Shown here: piece by piece, positions 9,265 to 64,000 of the stretch | Position numbering within the stretch: the stretch's first letter is position 1 | How the letters are laid out: the number at the start of each line of letters is the position of its first letter | IMG/VR virus record: IMGVR_UViG_3300034272_001354 | Span: 1-64,000 of that record | Reading direction: 5' to 3' (one strand) | From: a virus | DNA length: 64,000 nucleotides | Translations under genes and position numbers: made by a program | Notes under the pieces: model-generated | The model's input: only the letters and a program-made list of their open reading frames with translations | What the model was told of the DNA's origin: nothing | Databases searched by the model: none

Positions 9265-11529
9265 TTATTGTATTATTGTTGTTGTCGTTGTTGTTACAGG
9301 TATTGTTGTTGTCGTGGTTGTTACCGGAATAGTTGTCGTTGTTGTAGTTGAGATATCACCTATTGTGTATGTAAAATCATCAGGAGGACAAATTTCTGTA
9401 CTACAATCAGGACAATCAGGATTAAACATTCTAAATGTATTTTTCAATATATTAAAATTGTGTTTAACTTCCGGAGCTGATAATGGTGTTACATACATTC
9501 TAAATTGAGAAATTCCCCCTTCAAATGTTCCTGCAAAATTTTGTTCAATAACTATATTTGTGTTCATCCCATTAAATGTTGTTCCTGTCAAATCATTAAC
9601 AGGGAAACATTCAGGGTCTTGTTGATATGGACCATAAGGTAATGTACAAGATGAAAATGTTAAATTTTCTCTTAAACCTTGAGTTCCACCACCCCATGAT
9701 ATATTAAAAGGAACACCAACTTGTTTTTCCTTATCAGTACTTAACGCTCTTGGTATTATTTCTTGAAAATCTTCTATGGTATAAAATATTTTACCATTAA
9801 TATAAATTTTTAATCTTCCTCTTCTGTATTTTTCCTCCTCTAACCATCTTGCATTTAAATTAACCAATTCAATTTTTGCTGGGTCGATGTTTAATTGTGA
9901 AGTATAAGGTACATTAATTAATGATACCGAGTTATGTGCTAATGATTCTAAATATTTTTCTTGAGTAATAATACCTAAACCACCTCTATACCATAAATCA
10001 CAATCATCAAGCCAAGTGTATCTTTCCCACACAGCGTCTAATTGAAACCAATGTTCCTCATCTAACCACGCAGGGTTTTCTGTGTAACAAGTTGGATAAA
10101 TTCCTCCCGGTGAACAATATTCTGTAACAGTATATCCTGTTGTATAAGTTAATCCACTAGTTGAACATGTTCCGCTAGTTTCACAACCACCGGTAAATCT
10201 TAAAACCTTAACACCTATTTGAGGATTTTTAGGGTCACCACATAATTTAAATGATAATGCGTTAGACATCGCATCAAACAATGGATTTGTTTCACACGTA
10301 TATTCTATTGATGAGTATCCCGTAGGTACACAAGTGTTACAATTATTAAAATCATAACATGGATTACAATCACTACAAGTTTCTGTACACGTCGGTGTAG
10401 ATGGTAAACAATTTGTTGGTGTTGATGTCGGTGTTGGTGTTGGAGTAGGCGTTGGTTCAATAATTGACGCACAAGTATGTGTCTGACATTCCCATCCACA
10501 AGATTCACACGGGTCTAAATTACAATTACAACCACAAGTTATTTTTTGTTCAGGAATACCACGACATTCATGACATCCATAATTAACGTGTGGGTCGTGA
10601 ATACCATATAATGACCTTGGAGGATAAACATAGATACATCTACTATCCGTCACCGTTCTATTACAACAAGCACAAGTTTGAATACAATTATATAAATCTG
10701 ATGTTACACGAGTATATCCTGTAAAACAATTTGGTGTTCCGTTAGCGTGATGATAAAATTTATTTTCGGCTCTCGCACCTAAATAAAAGAATATGTTTTT
10801 ATTTTGTGGATAAATTTTGTTTAATGTTGTTTCACCTGATGTTGGAATATATTCATTAAACAATCTTGGTTTTAACAACATTTCAACAGACCACCCTCTA
10901 TTCATTCTTTCAGGAAATATTTCGTAATCATAACCAAATAATTTATAAAACCCTTGATAGAATCCACCGTATAATTCGTGGTATCTTCCTTCATAAGGAC
11001 TATATTTACTTACAACTTCATATAAAACAGTTTTATTAAATCCGGAAAATCTAACATTAGGTGATTGAGTGTTTCCGGTTACTTGGAACAATTTCAATCT
11101 TCTATCAAAATACATTCTATTAAACTTTAAGTCATCAGAAAATAACCCTTCGGTAAATGTAATAGTTTCTCCGGTCATTTTAGTAACCAAACCATTATCA
11201 ATACCGGTCAATCCAATATCACAAGAAGTATGTGATTTAAAACATGTTATATCTAATTCTTTAGGATTGTAAAAATTTTGAGAAACAAAAATATTATTTC
11301 TATTGTAGTCCTTATATGTTAATGTTAAATCTTGAACACTTAATGGATTATTAATGTCAAAATAAAATGGTAATCTATTACCATAGGTCTGAGCAATCAA
11401 ATATGGGGAGAAAACAACCTCTTGATTGTATCCTCTCTCATCTGATGTTAAAGACATATCGTAGGATTCTAAAGCAAAATTTAGACCCCAATTTGGATAG
11501 ACGTATTGATTTATATTTTGTTGTGCCAT
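9265..11529 (-). CDS. Cys-rich virion protein with LamG/ConA-like C-terminal region and Thr-rich tail
   Basis: Many CxxC/CxC motifs, LKIYING...FEGGISQFRMY, TTTTTTIPV repeats. Confidence 0.6.
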   Translation of the reverse strand: MAQQNINQYVYPNWGLNFALESYDMSLTSDERGYNQEVVFSPYLIAQTYGNRLPFYFDINNPLSVQDLTLTYKDYNRNNIFVSQNFYNPKELDITCFKSHTSCDIGLTGIDNGLVTKMTGETITFTEGLFSDDLKFNRMYFDRRLKLFQVTGNTQSPNVRFSGFNKTVLYEVVSKYSPYEGRYHELYGGFYQGFYKLFGYDYEIFPERMNRGWSVEMLLKPRLFNEYIPTSGETTLNKIYPQNKNIFFYLGARAENKFYHHANGTPNCFTGYTRVTSDLYNCIQTCACCNRTVTDSRCIYVYPPRSLYGIHDPHVNYGCHECRGIPEQKITCGCNCNLDPCESCGWECQTHTCASIIEPTPTPTPTPTSTPTNCLPSTPTCTETCSDCNPCYDFNNCNTCVPTGYSSIEYTCETNPLFDAMSNALSFKLCGDPKNPQIGVKVLRFTGGCETSGTCSTSGLTYTTGYTVTEYCSPGGIYPTCYTENPAWLDEEHWFQLDAVWERYTWLDDCDLWYRGGLGIITQEKYLESLAHNSVSLINVPYTSQLNIDPAKIELVNLNARWLEEEKYRRGRLKIYINGKIFYTIEDFQEIIPRALSTDKEKQVGVPFNISWGGGTQGLRENLTFSSCTLPYGPYQQDPECFPVNDLTGTTFNGMNTNIVIEQNFAGTFEGGISQFRMYVTPLSAPEVKHNFNILKNTFRMFNPDCPDCSTEICPPDDFTYTIGDISTTTTTTIPVTTTTTTIPVTTTTTTIIQ

Positions 11530-11539
11530 CTTTTTTATG

Positions 11540-11566
11540 ATAAATACATTAAAACGAAGTATTTAT
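11540..11566. promoter_or_regulatory. Back-to-back divergent candidate late promoters (GTATTTAT on each strand)
   Basis: ATAAATAC at 11540-47 and GTATTTAT at 11559-66, between divergent ATGs at 11529 and 11580. Confidence 0.65.
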
Positions 11567-11579
11567 ATGAAAAAGTTAT

Positions 11580-12410
11580 ATGATAAATTTTAATACAGAG
11601 TACTATAGTAATAATTATTACTTCTTTTTGAAAGAGAGAGCGGACAAAATCTCCTTATATTATTCTATTGCGGATACTTTAACTGAATCTCGAAAGAATG
11701 ATGAGAGAATTGACTTCGATAAAAAAGATTCTAAAAAAGTTAAAAATATTGTTGGAAATGTTTTAAAATCTAAAACAAAAGTTTCCAAAGACGCATTAAC
11801 CAAAAAGTTAAAAAGTATTAAACCTAAAAAAGAAATTGATGAATTAGTTGATTCTGATGGAACAATGTTAAGTTCAAAAATACCATTTCTTAATCAAACT
11901 TTAACACCACACAAAACTACTGACCAAACTGTTGCTATGGCAAGAATTACGAATGACCCGGTAACAAGAGGTTATAGAGTTTATTATGGTGAAAGTGAAG
12001 AAGGTTCTGATGAAGTTATTAATGAGGTTGATTATTCTGAAGCATTTGGGTATGAAGAAACCAAAGATATGGATTTTAAAGATACGGTTAAAACACTTAA
12101 AGAAATGGGTGTTGAGAATGCGATTGAAAGAGCGAAACAATTTGGTAAATTACCAAAACAAAAAAGAGAAGATGGTGAATTAAAACAAAGATTATCTGAA
12201 AAAGATAGTATTGAAGAACAACAAAGAAAAAAAATGATTAAAATGGTTGAGGATATGTTAACCAAAAAATCATCAAATAATTCTGATGTAGTAAAAGATA
12301 AAGGAATAAGTAAAATATTATTAAAAAATATTCAATCAATTAAAAAAATTGCTGATAAAGAAGGTATCAGTATCAATATGTTAATCAAAGCGTTAAAATC
12401 TAATGAATAA
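11580..12410 (+). CDS. Hypothetical protein (probable late/head-associated)
   Basis: 276-aa ORF after TATTTAT motif. Confidence 0.75.
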   Translation: MINFNTEYYSNNYYFFLKERADKISLYYSIADTLTESRKNDERIDFDKKDSKKVKNIVGNVLKSKTKVSKDALTKKLKSIKPKKEIDELVDSDGTMLSSKIPFLNQTLTPHKTTDQTVAMARITNDPVTRGYRVYYGESEEGSDEVINEVDYSEAFGYEETKDMDFKDTVKTLKEMGVENAIERAKQFGKLPKQKREDGELKQRLSEKDSIEEQQRKKMIKMVEDMLTKKSSNNSDVVKDKGISKILLKNIQSIKKIADKEGISINMLIKALKSNE

Positions 12411-61075: not shown

Positions 61076-61471
61076 GGGGGTAAAATGGTATTGACTGGCA
61101 TATCTACTTATTTGGGGCACGTAGTGAGAAGTTTCCTATCACTTAAATCTATGGATGACAAAATTATAAATGGCAACATTTTAAACAAAATGGCTCTAGT
61201 AGGTCTTGTACGTCAAGACGAGCTTGTGAACGTAGCGTAAGCAAACACACATTCGGGCCGGTGAGCATTACGCCTAGGAACAGAAGCTTTTACAAAGGTG
61301 TGGTACCTATCCGAAAAGGTACAAGTGGAGGATTAGTTCTCAATAAACCGAACCACTCAAAAATAAGGGAATTGTGAAATTTCGGATTGTTAGCTTAAAC
61401 AATGTCCTAAACGTGTAGTCCTGAACACTTAGGGTGAGCAACACGAGGCTTCGAAGCCTCTACCTCCACCA
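61076..61471 (+). ncRNA. ssrA: tmRNA
   Basis: 5' GGGGGTA pairs with 3' TACCTCC-ACCA including G3:U70; GTATTGAC D-like region; TTCGAA T-loop; ATAAAT|GGC resume context; tag ORF 61172-61240; smpB nearby. Confidence 0.92.
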
Positions 61472-61905: not shown

Positions 61906-62298
61906 TTACATTTTAACTTCTTGGTGACCCCCACCCCATAAATAACCATCACCATAATTTGTACAAATTTCTTCACCGGGTTGGATTGTTTGTAAAGCAT
62001 AAAATTGGAATGCTCTTTTTGTTGGATGATTTCTCCACATAGCATTATTTGTATCTGAATGATTATATATACACCCATAACCTAATGGAATCACATATTC
62101 TTCCCAATTTGGTCCTTGAGGATAACAAAATCTATAATCATCAAGTAGTTTTGATTTTTCCCATTTTTTTGTGGGTAATTTTACTAAATGACATTCTTCA
62201 ATTACCTCATCTTTTTGAATAACGTCAATAGCAAAGACCCCCATTCCTTTTCCTGGTGAGGGTTTAATTTCTATTTTAGTAGGTATTAATAAATTCAT
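61906..62298 (-). CDS. SET-domain protein-lysine methyltransferase
   Basis: SPGKGMGVFA, IYNHSD..NA, ALQTIQPGEEICTNYG. Confidence 0.9.
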   Translation of the reverse strand: MNLLIPTKIEIKPSPGKGMGVFAIDVIQKDEVIEECHLVKLPTKKWEKSKLLDDYRFCYPQGPNWEEYVIPLGYGCIYNHSDTNNAMWRNHPTKRAFQFYALQTIQPGEEICTNYGDGYLWGGGHQEVKM

Positions 62299-62323: not shown

Positions 62324-62761
62324 CTATTTCAAGTCCCTTTTCATATCTCTTTCAATATCCCGAGATTTAATACTATCTCGTTTATCGTGGAGTTTTTTTC
62401 CTTTGGCGAGAGCAATCTCCATCTTAACCAATCCGGTGTCATTTATGAAGACACGATAAGGAATGATGGTTGTCCCGTTTATTAACTCACGTTCCAACTT
62501 ATTTAGTTCTTTTTTCTTGGCCAATAGTTTTCTATCTTTAACTGTTTCATGGAATGACCCATAACCATAATCGGAGATGTTCATTCCCTTTATAAACAAT
62601 TCCCCATCATTAAAATAACAATACCCTTCAGATATGGAGACCTTTCCTTGACGGATGGACTTCACCTCTGAACCAACTAATTTGATTCCCACAATTAGGG
62701 TTTCTAAGAATGAATACTCAAACTTGGCTTTCTTATTGACTATGTTAATTGATTTTTTCAT
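62324..62761 (-). CDS. smpB: SsrA-binding protein SmpB
   Basis: NKKAKFEY, GIKLVGSEVKSIR, RKLL, AKGKKLHDKR; ATG at 62761. Confidence 0.95.
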   Translation of the reverse strand: MKKSINIVNKKAKFEYSFLETLIVGIKLVGSEVKSIRQGKVSISEGYCYFNDGELFIKGMNISDYGYGSFHETVKDRKLLAKKKELNKLERELINGTTIIPYRVFINDTGLVKMEIALAKGKKLHDKRDSIKSRDIERDMKRDLK

Positions 62762-62765
62762 AGGA

Positions 62766-62773
62766 CAAAGATA
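62766..62773 (-). promoter_or_regulatory. Bacteroidota-type -7 box, 4 nt from the smpB ATG
   Basis: TATCTTTG-TCCT-ATG. Confidence 0.6.
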
Positions 62774-62793
62774 ATATAAAAATTGGTATAAAC

Positions 62794-62827
62794 AAAAAAA
62801 GGTGTCACATTTCTGTAACACCTTTTT
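62794..62827 (-). terminator. Terminator of the large ncRNA
   Basis: AAAAAGGTGTTACA-GAAA-TGTGACACCTTTTTTT. Confidence 0.85.
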
Positions 62828-63714
62828 GGCTAATACGATGAGAATACTCGTGTTATTAAGAATCTTCGGAAGGATTATTGTTTCCCTTCTTTTCCACCAT
62901 CTTTTGAATGGTAATCCTCAGTGACAATTGGTTAGACCAATTACTCCTTGAGATATCATCTACTCTCTTATTATTCAACTCTCTTCAACCTTGCGGGCTG
63001 ACTCCGGATTCGACTCCGTAGAGGTTTTTCGTAAGAATACATTCTGACTTGCGGTCATCCTGTGCAACGAACGGCTCGTTACTATGTAGTCACCTTGTCG
63101 ATGATACCTGACAGACACTTTTGCTTATGTATCTTTTTAGTTTTACTTAAAATGTCCTATAAGTTAATTGTGTTGTGGATGTGTCCAAGTAGAGGTCTGT
63201 CGTAAGCTTCGTTATCTTTTGAACAACAAAATACTAATCTACTCGGTAGAGTGTCCCCACTCTCATATTTTAAGATTACTTCAAACTGACATCTTGGTAG
63301 ATGTTTCGTAAGGTTAGTAGCGACACCACTCGTTCTCTAACTTACCTTTCGGTTTTAAGTCCCCTTTGATATTGGAATCCGTAATTATAAGGTTGGATGA
63401 CCCTATTTCTCACATAATCCCTATCGGTTATTCTTGTTGGTGTTCCCACCTCAACCTGACGACCCACATCGCCCGGTCACCCAACCACTTTCTCTAAAGC
63501 GTTGCCCTCAATACTGAAGGTCAGGTGATATCCGACTTGTATACTCGAGCTCCCTTTCAGAAGCCGCAGAACCAATAACACTAATGATTCCACTTTATCC
63601 CGGTTTCCCGGTTTATTTAAGGATGATATACCACCCATTATCGTTTCTTACATCACCGAAGTGTGTAATGGATAATCTAAAATTTCTAAGAACGTTTAAG
63701 GTTTCCCTCAATTG
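62828..63714 (-). ncRNA. Large (~0.9 kb) structured ncRNA, GOLLD-like (family assignment tentative)
   Basis: No ORF of 60 aa or more, raised GC, own promoter and terminator, many hairpins with UUCG/GNRA loops, adjacent to tRNA-like genes. Confidence 0.75.
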
Positions 63715-63719
63715 TTTTA

Positions 63720-63749
63720 CAAAGATAAGTGATTTTTTTCATTTGTCAA
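63720..63749 (-). promoter_or_regulatory. Promoter of the large ncRNA
   Basis: TTGACA (63749-44) ... TATCTTTG (63727-20). Confidence 0.75.
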
Positions 63750-63787
63750 GCACTTTATAAAACTTTTTTTTAATTTTTTTTTATTTG

Positions 63788-63878
63788 TGGTATCGGCGGG
63801 GTTCGAACCTGCGGCACAGAGTCTTTCGTTACTCTTGCTCTACCAAGGAAGATAAATCTTCCACTGAGCTACAATACC
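63788..63878 (-). tRNA. Aberrant tRNA-like RNA (hairpin inserted in D-loop, 8-nt anticodon loop; no amino acid assignable)
   Basis: GGTATTG/CGATACC-A acceptor, GCTC/GAGC D-stem, AGAGT/ACTCT stem with loop AACGAAAG, GGTTCGAACCC T-arm. Confidence 0.75.
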
Positions 63879-63889
63879 ATGTAAAAAAA

Positions 63890-63964
63890 ATGTGGGTGTA
63901 TGCTCTACCATCTGAGCTACGGATAAATCCGGAGGGATTTGAAACCTCGACACGACACCCACAC
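63890..63964 (-). ncRNA. Circularly permuted tRNA-like RNA (YrlA-like topology)
   Basis: 5'-GTGTGGGTGT-CGTGTC-GAGGTTTCAAATCCCTC-CGGATTTATCCG-TAGCTCAGATGGTAGAGC-AT-ACACCCACAT. Confidence 0.75.
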
Positions 63965-64000
63965 TAATCTTTCAATATTTTTATGAACTTTATTTCTTGT

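What the first reader, a model, noticed from the sequence alone, without database searches (positions are those of the whole stretch)
63788..63878. tRNA-like gene with a hairpin inserted in the D-loop and a disabled anticodon loop
Seen: intact 7-bp acceptor, D-, anticodon- and T-stems (one A-C mismatch), but a perfect 16-nt hairpin GGAAGA-TTTA-TCTTCC (63847-63862) sits in the D-loop. The anticodon loop is 8 nt (AACGAAAG) with no U33, and CCA is not encoded. Intact stems argue against simple decay. Inference: a non-decoding tRNA mimic, or a tRNA needing unusual processing. It lies 11 nt downstream of the permuted RNA and is probably co-transcribed with it.
Basis: partly seen in the sequence, partly recalled or inferred. 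Interest (0 to 1): 0.7.

Follow-up and report, generated by a model that had tools for sequence, protein, structure and literature searches.

The report
Phage tRNA-Phe mimic with elbow hairpin
This is a real, conserved phage gene for a phenylalanine-tRNA look-alike that carries an extra hairpin at its elbow and an over-sized, probably closed anticodon loop, so it most likely imitates a tRNA rather than reading codons, and it always sits between a Y-RNA-like tRNA mimic and the cage-forming GOLLD RNA.

Summary
On the minus strand, 63878 to 63788, lies a 91-nt cloverleaf (Rfam tRNA 37.5 bits). It has a 16-nt hairpin in the D-loop, an 8-nt anticodon loop and one A-C mismatch in the T-stem. It is not decay or an assembly quirk. 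I found 18 distinct homologues in 24 phage contigs, none in 185,579 cellular genomes. All keep the hairpin and an 8-nt loop NNY-GAAA-R. Nine base pairs show compensatory changes.

With the hairpin removed, the body is closest to canonical tRNA-Phe(GAA). The Phe identity set G34, A35, A36, A73 never varies. A complete 309-kb relative also has a normal tRNA-Phe, so this copy is a specialised paralogue.

The gene order is fixed: one promoter, a YrlA-like RNA, this gene, then GOLLD behind its own promoter. tmRNA/SmpB, RNA-repair genes and a tRNA array lie nearby. The missing CCA is normal for this phage. ARAGORN's "tRNA-Pro" call is spurious.

My best reading (0.42) is a processed, non-decoding tRNA-Phe mimic. 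The function is unproven, and I found no RNA reads over it.

This scan has already reported tRNA-Glu and tRNA-Tyr mimics with the same elbow hairpin beside GOLLD on other DNA. This adds a Phe lineage. My searches of the held papers turned up no description of any of them.

The parts
63788..63878 (-). Whole tRNA-Phe-like gene, 91 nt, G1 at 63878 and discriminator A73 at 63788
   Evidence: Rfam RF00005 37.5 bits; 18 distinct homologues; covariation
63872..63878 (-). Acceptor stem, 5' strand (GGUAUUG). It pairs with 63789-63795.
   Evidence: 7 of 7 pairs, 100% of cells paired, 4 pairs with compensatory changes
63789..63795 (-). Acceptor stem, 3' strand (CGAUACC), followed by A73 at 63788 and then CAA. 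No CCA tail.
   Evidence: the other tRNA genes of the phage also lack CCA
63837..63869 (-). D-arm: stem GCUC/GAGC (63869-63866 with 63840-63837) enclosing the enlarged D-loop. G18 and G19 are at 63844-63843.
   Evidence: Invariant in all homologues. Placing the insert before G18 follows subfamily B, which has no GG 5' of its hairpin.
63847..63862 (-). Inserted 16-nt hairpin GGAAGA-UUUA-UCUUCC between U16 and U17/G18 (alpha region of the D-loop, the 'variable pocket' at the elbow)
   Evidence: 98.8% of cells paired, with G-C/G-U/A-U swaps; the loop varies (UUUA, UUCG, UUCA); predicted in the MFE fold
63818..63835 (-). Anticodon arm: 5-bp stem AGAGU/ACUCU around the 8-nt loop
   Evidence: 94% of cells paired; one pair changes on both sides (A-U to G-C, in L072)
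63823..63830 (-). 8-nt loop AACGAAAG. GAAA (63827-63824) is invariant. C63828 and G63823 can pair and close a GAAA tetraloop, leaving an AA bulge.
   Evidence: The loop is always 8 nt, NNY-GAAA-R. The Y:R pair is C-G in 10, U-G in 2, U-A in 1 and C/U in 1 of 14 sequences. Further members have UUUGAAAA and UCUGAAAA.
63796..63812 (-). T-arm GCAGG-UUCGAAC-CCCGC with the A51-C63 mismatch
   Evidence: The mismatch is A-U in 7 of 14 homologues and U-A in one. Three T-stem pairs covary.
63878..63975 (-). Upstream neighbour in the same transcription unit: the YrlA-like (Y RNA-like) permuted tRNA mimic. The Rfam match runs 63878-63975; the compact structure is about 63890-63964.
   Evidence: RF02553 40 bits, below the gathering score of 69, E 4.8e-7. 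It is present upstream of the gene in all 14 loci inspected, with a covarying closing stem.
63720..63749 (-). Promoter of the downstream GOLLD RNA (TTGACA-16-TATCTTTG). It begins about 40 nt after the tRNA-like 3' end.
62835..63700 (-). GOLLD RNA (3' domain 62835-63246 plus the 5' domain), the constant downstream neighbour
   Evidence: RF02032 306.5 bits; adjacency in every subfamily-A locus that reaches that far

Best explanation
The stretch is a working gene for a 91-nt tRNA-shaped RNA that descends from tRNA-Phe(GAA). It belongs to a phage-only family. Shown: every member has a 5-6-bp hairpin inserted into the D-loop between nt 16 and G18. Every member also has an 8-nt 'anticodon' loop NNY-GAAA-R in which GAA(A) never changes, while U33 is usually replaced by C. 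The gene follows a YrlA-like tRNA mimic behind a single Bacteroidota-type promoter and precedes the separately promoted GOLLD RNA. Inferred: RNase P and 3' processing cut the RNA out of the precursor. It is CCA-tailed like the phage's other CCA-less tRNAs. It folds into a normal L-shape with a hairpin sticking out of the elbow. It then acts as a tRNA-Phe mimic, not as a routine elongator. The retained Phe identity set (G34, A35, A36, A73) would let PheRS, or another host factor that reads tRNA-Phe such as a tRNA-cleaving defence nuclease, bind it. The enlarged loop, closable to a GAAA tetraloop, and the elbow hairpin would keep it out of ordinary decoding. It would thus serve as a decoy or competitor, or as a charged but non-translating carrier. 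It lies in the phage's island for keeping translation alive under tRNA attack: tmRNA/SmpB, an Rnl1-type ligase with a kinase and a phosphoesterase, and the tRNA array.
For: Family and selection: a D-arm pattern scan of 2.9 million viral contigs gave 57 loci. Sixteen are of the target's type, and seven more came from GOLLD-based scans. That makes 18 distinct sequences in 24 contigs. On 14 of them 96.7% of cells pair and 9 pairs show compensatory change. The loop is always 8 nt with invariant GAAA, while its first three bases vary (AAC, CUC, CCC, AAU, UUU, UCU). A sister subfamily in 317-321-kb phages also has a D-loop hairpin, and its odd loops (CUGAACA with C37, GUGAACA, UAUGAAAG) again keep Y-GAA. 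tRNA-Phe origin: the hairpin-deleted core is closest to canonical tRNA-Phe, which takes 5 of the top 6 places among 118 unique tRNAs. L072 has the canonical Phe loop CUGAAAA plus one 5' base. G34, A35, A36 and A73 are the universal Phe identity set (PMC9976931). Paralogue, not sole decoder: the complete 309-kb relative has a canonical tRNA-Phe(GAA) in its main tRNA island plus this RNA beside GOLLD. Against normal decoding: the base before G34 is C in 10 of 14 sequences, and the Y:R pair that would close a GAAA tetraloop is pairable in 13 of 14, with C-G, U-G and U-A. Operon and synteny: YrlA-like, this gene and GOLLD keep that order in every locus that extends far enough. There is one promoter box upstream and none between. 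Context: SmpB, an Rnl1-type ligase, an AAA_33 kinase and a metallophosphoesterase lie within 5 kb. The ligase lies 5-7 kb from GOLLD in two further relatives. The same design occurs in another lineage: tRNA-Glu-like genes with D-loop inserts and off-register loops directly flank GOLLD in 260-640-kb phages. Not an artefact: 14 DNA runs from lake and freshwater studies hold at least 91% of the sampled words of 62830-64000.
Against: There is no direct evidence for expression, processing, CCA addition or charging. An intact body plus the full Phe identity set is also what a working tRNA would show. An 8-nt loop does not by itself exclude decoding: yeast mitochondrial tRNA-Thr(UAG) has one (PMC7609411). 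No partner is identified. The phage and its complete relative encode no Ro/Rsr, RtcB or L/F-transferase. The family is only about 91% identical per column, so part of the invariance could reflect shallow divergence. Thermodynamic folding prefers to extend the inserted hairpin into the D-loop, which would consume G18/G19. Those columns never vary, so covariation cannot decide between the two folds. The link to GOLLD is lineage-limited: only 4 of 85 GOLLD loci sampled without bias matched my pattern for this RNA.
Confidence: 0.42

Rival explanations
1. It is a working elongator tRNA-Phe variant. It is charged with Phe and used on the ribosome. Its altered loop and elbow make it resistant to a host tRNA-cleaving defence. 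Alternatively the 8-nt loop reads four bases (UUC-R) and shifts the frame at special sites.
For: The full Phe identity set, 7-bp acceptor, tertiary core and T-loop are conserved. Phages are known to carry tRNAs with anticodon-loop changes that escape anticodon nucleases (PMC10264068, PMC11464382, PMC11555353). RNA-repair genes lie nearby. An 8-nt loop can decode (PMC7609411). The base 5' of GAA is always a pyrimidine.
Against: U33 is replaced by C in most members, and two further 5' loop bases vary freely. The sister subfamily has C at position 37, which is a purine in decoding tRNAs as far as I know. A normal tRNA-Phe is present in the complete relative. A 16-nt hairpin at the elbow has no precedent in the review of non-canonical tRNAs that I read. 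I did not look for frameshift sites.
Confidence: 0.2
2. It is mainly a cis-acting processing and stability module. The tRNA shape recruits RNase P and 3'-end enzymes, which define the 3' end of the YrlA-like RNA and close the operon. There would be no trans function.
For: There is no terminator after the YrlA-like RNA in relatives, and the gene is the last element of the unit. Across GOLLD loci an ordinary tRNA-Met often abuts the GOLLD 3' end at about 10 nt (21 of 112) or its 5' side (10 of 85), as expected for tRNA punctuation. M. smegmatis YrlA and YrlB are processed from one precursor, and YrlA is cut by RNase P (PMC4201824).
Against: To my knowledge RNase P needs only the acceptor/T domain. 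That would not explain an invariant GAAA, A73, a conserved D-loop hairpin or a fixed 8-nt loop. In relatives a ~173-nt spacer separates it from the YrlA-like RNA.
Confidence: 0.18
3. It is an RNA-RNA adaptor. The closed GAAA tetraloop docks into a receptor in the GOLLD cage. Alternatively the exposed GAAA(G) pairs with the UUUUC anticodon loop of tRNA-Glu. Either way a tRNA-shaped cargo would be tethered to, or held inside, the GOLLD assembly.
For: It is always adjacent to GOLLD in this lineage. The Y:R closing pair covaries. Published structures place the tRNA-bearing linker of GOLLD inside the cage and suggest tRNAs as cargo (PMC12286853). A Mycolicibacterium GOLLD is reported to embed a tRNA-Phe (PMC12990946). 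GOLLD-flanking mimics in other phages derive from tRNA-Glu, whose anticodon is complementary to GAA.
Against: The sister subfamily has GAAC loops that are not GNRA and is not next to GOLLD. I did not search for a receptor motif. GOLLD has its own promoter. Most GOLLD loci lack this RNA.
Confidence: 0.12
4. It is a decaying tRNA pseudogene or an assembly artefact.
For: Low tRNA score (37.5 bits), an A-C mismatch, a non-canonical loop, and no RNA contigs over it.
Against: Both oddities are conserved in 18 distinct sequences, with compensatory changes in four helices. The synteny is fixed. Many independent DNA runs hold the sequence.
Confidence: 0.03

Closest known systems
Canonical bacterial and phage tRNA-Phe(GAA) (Rfam RF00005)
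   Same: Cloverleaf, tertiary core, D-arm GCUCAGU..GGUAGAGC, variable loop GUGYC, G34 A35 A36, A73. It is the nearest sequence relative once the hairpin is removed.
   Different: A 16-nt hairpin in the D-loop. An 8-nt loop that mostly lacks U33. A separate location beside GOLLD, while a normal tRNA-Phe sits in the tRNA island of a complete relative.
YrlA / bacterial Y RNAs (Rfam RF02553; Chen et al. 2014, PMC4201824)
   Same: A non-coding tRNA mimic of bacteria and phages. YrlA is co-transcribed with a second small RNA and linked to RNA-repair genes. The target shares an operon with a YrlA-like RNA. Its loop CGAAAG resembles the core of the proposed Ro-binding motif GNCGAAN0-1G.
   Different: The target is not permuted and has an open acceptor end and an anticodon arm. 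It has no 5'/3' Ro-binding stem. No Ro/Rsr gene is present in the phage or its complete relative.
tRNAs next to or inside GOLLD RNA (Weinberg 2009 as cited; Kretsch 2025, PMC12286853; Mycolicibacterium GOLLD with an embedded tRNA-Phe, PMC12990946; 'pseudo tRNA' in PMC6582537)
   Same: Association of GOLLD with a tRNA, and in mycobacteria specifically with a tRNA-Phe that was predicted to be a pseudo-tRNA.
   Different: Here the RNA lies upstream of GOLLD's own promoter, not in the linker. The elbow hairpin and 8-nt loop are not mentioned in the papers I could read. I could not read Morgado 2020 itself.
Phage tRNAs that escape anticodon nucleases through anticodon-loop changes (van den Berg 2023, PMC10264068; T5 tRNA-Lys against PARIS, PMC11464382; T5 tRNA-Tyr against retron effectors, PMC11555353)
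   Same: A phage-encoded tRNA variant with an altered anticodon loop in a genome that also invests in tRNA repair.
   Different: As far as I know those variants keep 7-nt loops and decode. None has a D-loop hairpin.
tRNAs with 8-nt anticodon loops (yeast mitochondrial tRNA-Thr(UAG), PMC7609411; bacterial +1 frameshift suppressors such as sufB2, from my own knowledge)
   Same: The anticodon loop is enlarged by one base.
   Different: As far as I know those keep U33 and act on the ribosome. Here U33 is mostly C, the loop can close to a tetraloop, and there is a second insertion at the elbow.
Non-translating pseudo-tRNAs (Bacillus cereus tRNA-Other, PMC3399842; non-proteinogenic tRNA-Gly of Staphylococcus, from my own knowledge)
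   Same: A tRNA-shaped RNA kept by selection for a role outside routine decoding.
   Different: Cellular, not viral. No D-loop hairpin and no link to GOLLD or a Y RNA.
tRNA-Glu and tRNA-Tyr mimics beside GOLLD reported earlier by this scan (e1-6013106, e1-5689643, e1-5689632, e1-5641767, e1-5779958)
   Same: A phage-only tRNA body with an extra D-loop hairpin and a non-decoding loop, placed next to GOLLD. I saw the Glu type myself in L003, L004 and L169-L173.
   Different: The parent tRNA differs (Phe). The insert lies before G18, not after G19. The anticodon triplet is strictly kept, not hypervariable. It sits in an operon with a YrlA-like RNA.
Archaeal tRNA genes with introns in the D-loop
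   Same: Extra sequence between the two halves of the same D-arm. Many such genes in Bathyarchaeia and Nitrososphaerota came up with the same pattern.
   Different: Those inserts are 24-30 nt and occur in archaea. Here the host is bacterial, the insert is a plain hairpin without a bulge-helix-bulge, and its stem is kept by selection.

Membership tests
tRNA (Rfam RF00005) | Score at or above the family gathering threshold (29 bits) | tested here: met
   37.5 bits
tRNA (Rfam RF00005) | Four-arm cloverleaf with a 7-bp acceptor, supported by covariation | tested here: met
   96.7% of cells paired and 9 pairs with compensatory change on 14 sequences
tRNA (Rfam RF00005) | Tertiary-core bases U8, A14, G18, G19, U54, U55, C56, A58, G53-C61 | tested here: met
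   All present and invariant
tRNA (decoding elongator) | 7-nt anticodon loop with U33 and a purine at 37 | tested here: not met
   The loop is 8 nt in all 18 members. The base before G34 is C in 10 of 14.
tRNA (decoding elongator) | D-loop of ordinary size (the review I read gives 8-11 bases for tRNA-Ser; PMC7609411) | tested here: not met
   The D-loop is 25 nt because of the 16-nt hairpin.
tRNA-Phe | Identity set G34, A35, A36 and A73 (PMC9976931) | tested here: met
   GAA and A73 are invariant in the family. The register within an 8-nt loop is assumed.
tRNA-Phe | Body closest to known tRNA-Phe genes | tested here: met
   Five of the six best matches among 118 unique tRNAs are tRNA-Phe.
tRNA-Phe | Aminoacylation with Phe by PheRS | not testable with these tools
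   Needs a charging assay.
YrlA / Y RNA (RF02553) | Permuted tRNA-like module closed by a 5'/3' stem that binds Ro/Rsr | tested here: not met
   The target has a normal, non-permuted cloverleaf. Only its upstream neighbour matches RF02553, at 40 bits against a gathering score of 69.
YrlA / Y RNA (RF02553) | Encoded next to a Ro60/Rsr (TROVE) gene | tested here: not met
   No TROVE match in this record or in four relatives, one of them complete.
GOLLD-embedded tRNA | The tRNA lies inside the GOLLD transcript (linker J13/15) | tested here: not met
   It lies upstream of GOLLD's own promoter at 63720-63749.
Intron-containing tRNA | A bulge-helix-bulge motif or a group I intron at the insert | tested here: not met
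   The insert is a plain 6-bp hairpin with a 4-nt loop, and its stem is kept by G-C/G-U/A-U swaps.
+1 frameshift-suppressor tRNA | An 8-nt loop together with cognate four-base sites in genes | not tested
   The 8-nt loop is present. I did not search the phage genes for UUC-N shift sites.

The most novel reading that the evidence does not exclude
These phages make a class of tRNA mimics derived from Phe, Glu or Tyr tRNAs. The mimics stay recognisable to the cognate synthetase or to a tRNA-specific defence nuclease. A grafted elbow hairpin and a closed anticodon loop bar them from the ribosome, and they work together with the GOLLD RNA cage. For example, the mimic could be cargo docked through its GAAA tetraloop, or it could capture the complementary tRNA-Glu anticodon loop. 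That would give GOLLD its first concrete molecular partner.
Probability: 0.12. Interest if true: 0.85.

Novelty: new variant of a known kind. Interest (0 to 1): 0.62.

Why it matters
GOLLD is one of the largest bacterial and phage RNAs with a solved structure, and it has no known function. Its recurrent tRNA neighbours are the main clue. This locus shows that in large phages, probably of Bacteroidota, the neighbour is not an ordinary tRNA. It is a purpose-built tRNA-Phe look-alike, with two conserved modifications, in an operon with a Y-RNA-like mimic and close to tRNA-repair and ribosome-rescue genes. The same two modifications appear on tRNA-Glu bodies in other giant phages (seen here), and this scan reports them on tRNA-Tyr bodies too. 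Together they define a testable class of viral tRNA mimics. They could bear on how phages counter tRNA-cleaving defences. They could also offer tRNA scaffolds that carry a tolerated handle at the elbow.

Tried and rejected
- **Expression.** I laid Logan contigs of four metatranscriptome runs on contig 62600-64400. They cover GOLLD only, about 62840-63650, and nothing over the tRNA-like or the YrlA-like RNA. Contigs of size-selected libraries say nothing about a 91-nt structured RNA, so this is no evidence either way.
- **Partner proteins.** I found no TROVE/Rsr, RtcB or Leu/Phe-transferase in this record or in the complete relative. A PolyA_pol/CCA-type nucleotidyltransferase exists in the complete relative only.
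- **Shared octamer.** Relatives combine different loops, for example GAUUCAUC with GAUUUAUC, or much longer neighbour hairpins. I treat the match as coincidence.
- **U8 run.** The U8 after the YrlA-like stem is unique to this phage. Relatives have UAACUUAUAAU and similar, and the terminator scan found nothing.
- **Intron reading.** Rejected: there is no bulge-helix-bulge, and the host is bacterial.
- **ARAGORN's tRNA-Pro(tgg).** Rejected as a misread of the D-loop.
- **Cellular homologues.** The same pattern in 185,579 genomes gave no family member. It returned archaeal D-loop introns, tandem duplicates, chance hits, and two bacterial MAG tRNA-Phe genes with a D-loop hairpin but a normal loop.
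- **Recent duplication.** The canonical tRNA-Phe of the complete relative has a different body, so the target is not a recent copy of it.
- **First GOLLD motif pattern.** It was too narrow, giving 11 loci. A looser one gave more than 114.
- **Papers.** Weinberg 2009 and Morgado 2020 could not be opened. What I say about them rests on papers that cite them.
Full report
**1. What is in the sequence**

The window is the first 64 kb of a 76,982-nt IMG/VR virus record. CheckV puts it at 26% complete, so it is a fragment of a roughly 300-kb phage.

Read on the minus strand, 63878 to 63788 is a 91-nt cloverleaf:
- acceptor GGUAUUG/CGAUACC
- U8 and A9
- D-stem GCUC/GAGC
- anticodon stem AGAGU/ACUCU
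- variable loop GUGCC
- T-arm GCAGG-UUCGAAC-CCCGC, with an A51-C63 mismatch
- discriminator A73, followed by CAA

Rfam's tRNA model scores it 37.5 bits against a gathering score of 29. It places 20 nt where the D-loop consensus has 2, and 8 nt where the anticodon loop has 7. The extra D-loop sequence is the perfect hairpin GGAAGA-UUUA-UCUUCC at 63862-63847. The loop AACGAAAG is at 63830-63823.

Two of its side remarks are not. CCA is absent from every ordinary tRNA gene of this phage that I read, so its absence here means nothing. ARAGORN does not return "undetermined". It calls the gene tRNA-Pro(tgg) by taking the D-loop UUGGUA for an anticodon loop. The phage has a true tRNA-Pro(UGG) at contig 76722-76797.

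**2. It is a conserved family, not decay**

I scanned 2.9 million viral contigs for the D-arm with 12-30 extra bases, GTAGCTCAGT-N(12-30)-GGTAGAGCA. This gave 57 loci.
- Sixteen are of the target's type.
- Seven more, with A instead of G at position 7, came from scans for GOLLD.
- In total there are 18 distinct sequences in 24 contigs.

All have the hairpin at the same place. Stems are GGGGGA/UCUUCC, GGGAGA/UCUUCC, GGAAGA/UCUCCC, GGAGA/UCUCC and GGGAGA/UUUCCC. Loops are UUUA, UUCG or UUCA.

All have an 8-nt loop:
- AACGAAAG nine times
- CCCGAAAG twice
- UCUGAAAA twice
- CUCGAAAG, AAUGAAAG, AACGAAAU, UUUGAAAG and UUUGAAAA once each

On 14 distinct sequences 96.7% of cells form standard pairs, against 41-51% when the partners are slid. 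Nine pairs change on both sides: four in the acceptor stem, one in the anticodon stem, three in the T-stem, and the loop-closing pair. None of 500 shuffles reaches this. RNAalifold independently recovers the acceptor, hairpin, anticodon and T helices. For the D-stem it prefers to extend the inserted hairpin, which would consume G18 and G19. Those columns never vary, so covariation cannot decide. The sister subfamily cannot form that extension, so the cloverleaf is the fold both subfamilies can share.

The same pattern found no member in one genome each of 185,579 prokaryote species. It returned archaeal D-loop introns, tandem duplicates, chance hits, and two MAG tRNA-Phe genes with a D-loop hairpin but a normal loop. 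Fourteen DNA runs from lake and freshwater studies hold at least 91% of the sampled words of this stretch.

**3. It derives from tRNA-Phe**

With the 16-nt hairpin removed, the core aligns best to canonical tRNA-Phe(GAA) genes. Five of the six best matches among 118 unique tRNAs are tRNA-Phe. The variable loop GUGYC is the one seen in tRNA-Phe among the tRNAs that share this D-arm. In L072 the loop is the canonical Phe loop CUGAAAA with one extra 5' base. G34, A35, A36 and A73, the four universally conserved Phe identity elements (PMC9976931), are invariant across the family.

A sister subfamily lives in 317-321-kb phages. Its acceptor is GGUUGAG/CCCAACC and its D-loop hairpin is AACUC-UUCG-GGGUU. 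Its loops are CUGAACA, GUGAACA, UAUGAAAG and the like. They are aberrant in other ways, for example C at position 37 or a 4-bp stem, but they again keep Y-GAA.

The complete relative G001 is 309,177 nt and CheckV rates it 100% complete. It has 26 matches to the tRNA model. They include a canonical tRNA-Phe(GAA) in the main tRNA island and this RNA far away beside GOLLD. The two have different bodies. In one 362-kb phage (L051) a normal tRNA-Phe and a hairpin/8-nt-loop variant lie in tandem. The odd gene is therefore a specialised paralogue and not the phage's Phe decoder.

**4. Surroundings**

The order on the minus strand is as follows:
- a promoter, TTGACA-17-TATCTTTG, at contig 64032-64002, just beyond the window
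- a YrlA-like RNA (RF02553, 40 bits, below the gathering score of 69, E 4.8e-7)
- an 11-nt gap, then the tRNA-like gene
- about 40 nt further, a second promoter at 63749-63720
- GOLLD (RF02032, 306.5 bits)

This order holds in every family-A locus that extends far enough. In the 14 loci where I read the upstream sequence, the gap is 11-12 nt or about 173 nt, and I saw no TAnnTTTG box in it. The closing stem of the YrlA-like RNA covaries: GUGUGGGUGU/ACACCCACA, GGUGGACGU/ACGUCCAC and GGUGAGUGU/ACACUCAC. Co-transcription with the permuted RNA is therefore well supported by layout, though no reads show it.

Genes nearby:
- Downstream: SmpB, a SET-domain protein and a tmRNA
- Upstream, within 5 kb: a T4 Rnl1-type RNA ligase, an AAA_33 P-loop kinase and a calcineurin-type phosphoesterase. 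By analogy with T4 Pnkp and Rnl1, which is my inference, this is a tRNA-repair set.
- Further upstream: the main tRNA array

The ligase is 5-7 kb from GOLLD in two further relatives but far from it in the complete one. No Ro/Rsr, RtcB or L/F-transferase gene is present. The complete relative has a CCA-type nucleotidyltransferase.

**5. Wider pattern**

In giant phages of 260-640 kb, GOLLD is flanked directly by tRNA-Glu-like genes. These carry an 18-45-nt insert in the D-loop, there after G19, and an off-register loop CUUUUC(A/G)G or CUUUUCA. The notes of this scan show that other agents had already reported such tRNA-Glu mimics, and also tRNA-Tyr mimics, beside GOLLD on other DNA. The present locus adds a Phe lineage with its own insert position, so the design seems to have arisen more than once.

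I also sampled 114 GOLLD loci by a GOLLD motif alone.
- Aberrant tRNA-likes are about three times enriched near GOLLD: 13 of 121 tRNA calls near it against 12 of 327 elsewhere (Fisher p = 0.009).
- Most GOLLD loci show no adjacent tRNA to ARAGORN, or an ordinary tRNA-Met(CAU).
- My pattern for the Phe mimic matched in only 4 of 85.

The link is thus lineage-specific.

In print, GOLLD is "often near tRNA islands", tRNAs sometimes sit in its linker, and that linker points into the cage (PMC12286853). A Mycolicibacterium GOLLD is reported to embed a tRNA-Phe (PMC12990946). The GOLLD-embedded tRNA of a mycobacterium studied by others, presumably the same kind of gene, was predicted to be a pseudo-tRNA and was not detected on Northern blots (PMC6582537). 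In seven full-text searches I found no description of an elbow hairpin or an enlarged loop in GOLLD-linked or other phage tRNAs.

**6. How it most likely works**

Shown: a selected L-shaped RNA of tRNA-Phe origin, with a hairpin at the variable pocket of the elbow, a fixed 8-nt loop, an invariant GAA(A) and A73, and U33 mostly lost.

The pair that would close the loop into a GAAA tetraloop is C-G in 10, U-G in 2, U-A in 1 and unpaired in 1 of 14 sequences. Two further members with U...A fit the same pattern.

Inferred: the RNA is released by RNase P and 3' processing and is CCA-tailed like its neighbours. It then acts as a tRNA-Phe mimic. It stays recognisable to whatever reads GAA plus A73, be that PheRS or a tRNA-Phe-directed host factor such as a defence nuclease. 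The enlarged or closed loop and the elbow hairpin keep it out of routine decoding. I put 0.42 on this.

Rivals:
- a nuclease-resistant or frameshifting elongator (0.20)
- a pure processing and stability module for the operon (0.18)
- an RNA-RNA adaptor for GOLLD or for tRNA-Glu (0.12)
- decay or artefact (0.03)

None can be settled without RNA and biochemical data. Metatranscriptome contigs covered GOLLD only and are uninformative for a 91-nt RNA.

**7. Verdict**

The RNA fails the test for a standard decoding tRNA on two defining features. It is also not a YrlA, not a GOLLD-embedded tRNA and not an intron-bearing tRNA. It passes every test I could run for tRNA-Phe descent. I class it as a new variant of a known kind, a viral tRNA mimic linked to GOLLD. 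My searches of the held papers turned up no description of it, but this scan has seen sibling forms before.

Noticed in passing
window 63878-63975 (-), promoter at contig 64002-64032: A YrlA-like permuted tRNA mimic (RF02553, 40 bits, below the gathering score). Its closing stem covaries across relatives. No Ro/Rsr gene is present in the phage or in a complete relative.
   Followed up: partly
L002 4055-4156 (contig 64055-64156, -); also L002 12810-12889 and L062 8186-8272, 9775-9868: A second family of tRNA-like RNAs sharing the acceptor AGUCAGG/CCUGACU and a T-arm. The anticodon region is replaced by extra hairpins, and one copy has two T-arm-like hairpins. Several copies occur per phage.
   Followed up: no
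L002 6253-7278, 7290-7688, 8183-8860 (contig 66253-68860, -): A T4 Rnl1-type RNA ligase, an AAA_33 P-loop kinase and a calcineurin-type phosphoesterase lie within a 2.6-kb stretch. This looks like a tRNA-repair set, 2.4-5 kb from the RNA module. The ligase is also near GOLLD in two relatives.
   Followed up: partly
window 62324-62821 (-), 61906-62298 (-), 61076-61471 (+): A phage SmpB (160 bits) and a SET-domain protein lie next to a tmRNA that only just passes Rfam (50.3 against 47 bits) and that ARAGORN did not call.
   Followed up: no
L012, L025, L042, L048, L059: the ~173 nt between the YrlA-like RNA and the tRNA-like gene: Relatives with the long spacer carry a conserved, hairpin-rich sequence there. 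It is possibly one more small RNA of the operon.
   Followed up: no
L010, L016, L023, L029, L058, L013 (317-321-kb and other phage contigs): The sister-subfamily tRNA-Phe-likes sit between two other elements. Upstream is a small promoter-driven hairpin RNA with a GAUGAAAGA loop. Downstream is a promoter-driven structured RNA of about 250-300 nt that starts GGACAGCGGAAUG and has no Rfam match.
   Followed up: no
114 GOLLD loci, L176 onwards: An ordinary tRNA-Met(CAU) abuts the GOLLD 3' end at about 10 nt in 21 of 112 loci and lies just 5' of GOLLD in 10 of 85. All tRNAs near GOLLD are on its strand.
   Followed up: partly
L051 4093-4188, 6085-6173, 6283-6356: A 362-kb phage contig has a small SRP RNA match (40.9 against 40 bits). 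It also has a canonical tRNA-Phe in tandem with a hairpin/8-nt-loop variant.
   Followed up: no
L098 (Bacteroidota MAG), L140 (Pyrinomonadaceae MAG): Two bacterial MAG contigs carry tRNA-Phe(GAA) genes with a D-loop hairpin but a normal 7-nt loop CUGAAAA. I did not check whether they are of prophage origin.
   Followed up: no
L174 (G001 11295-11699, -): The complete relative encodes a short (241-aa open frame) PolyA_pol/CCA-type nucleotidyltransferase about 13 kb from the RNA module.
   Followed up: no
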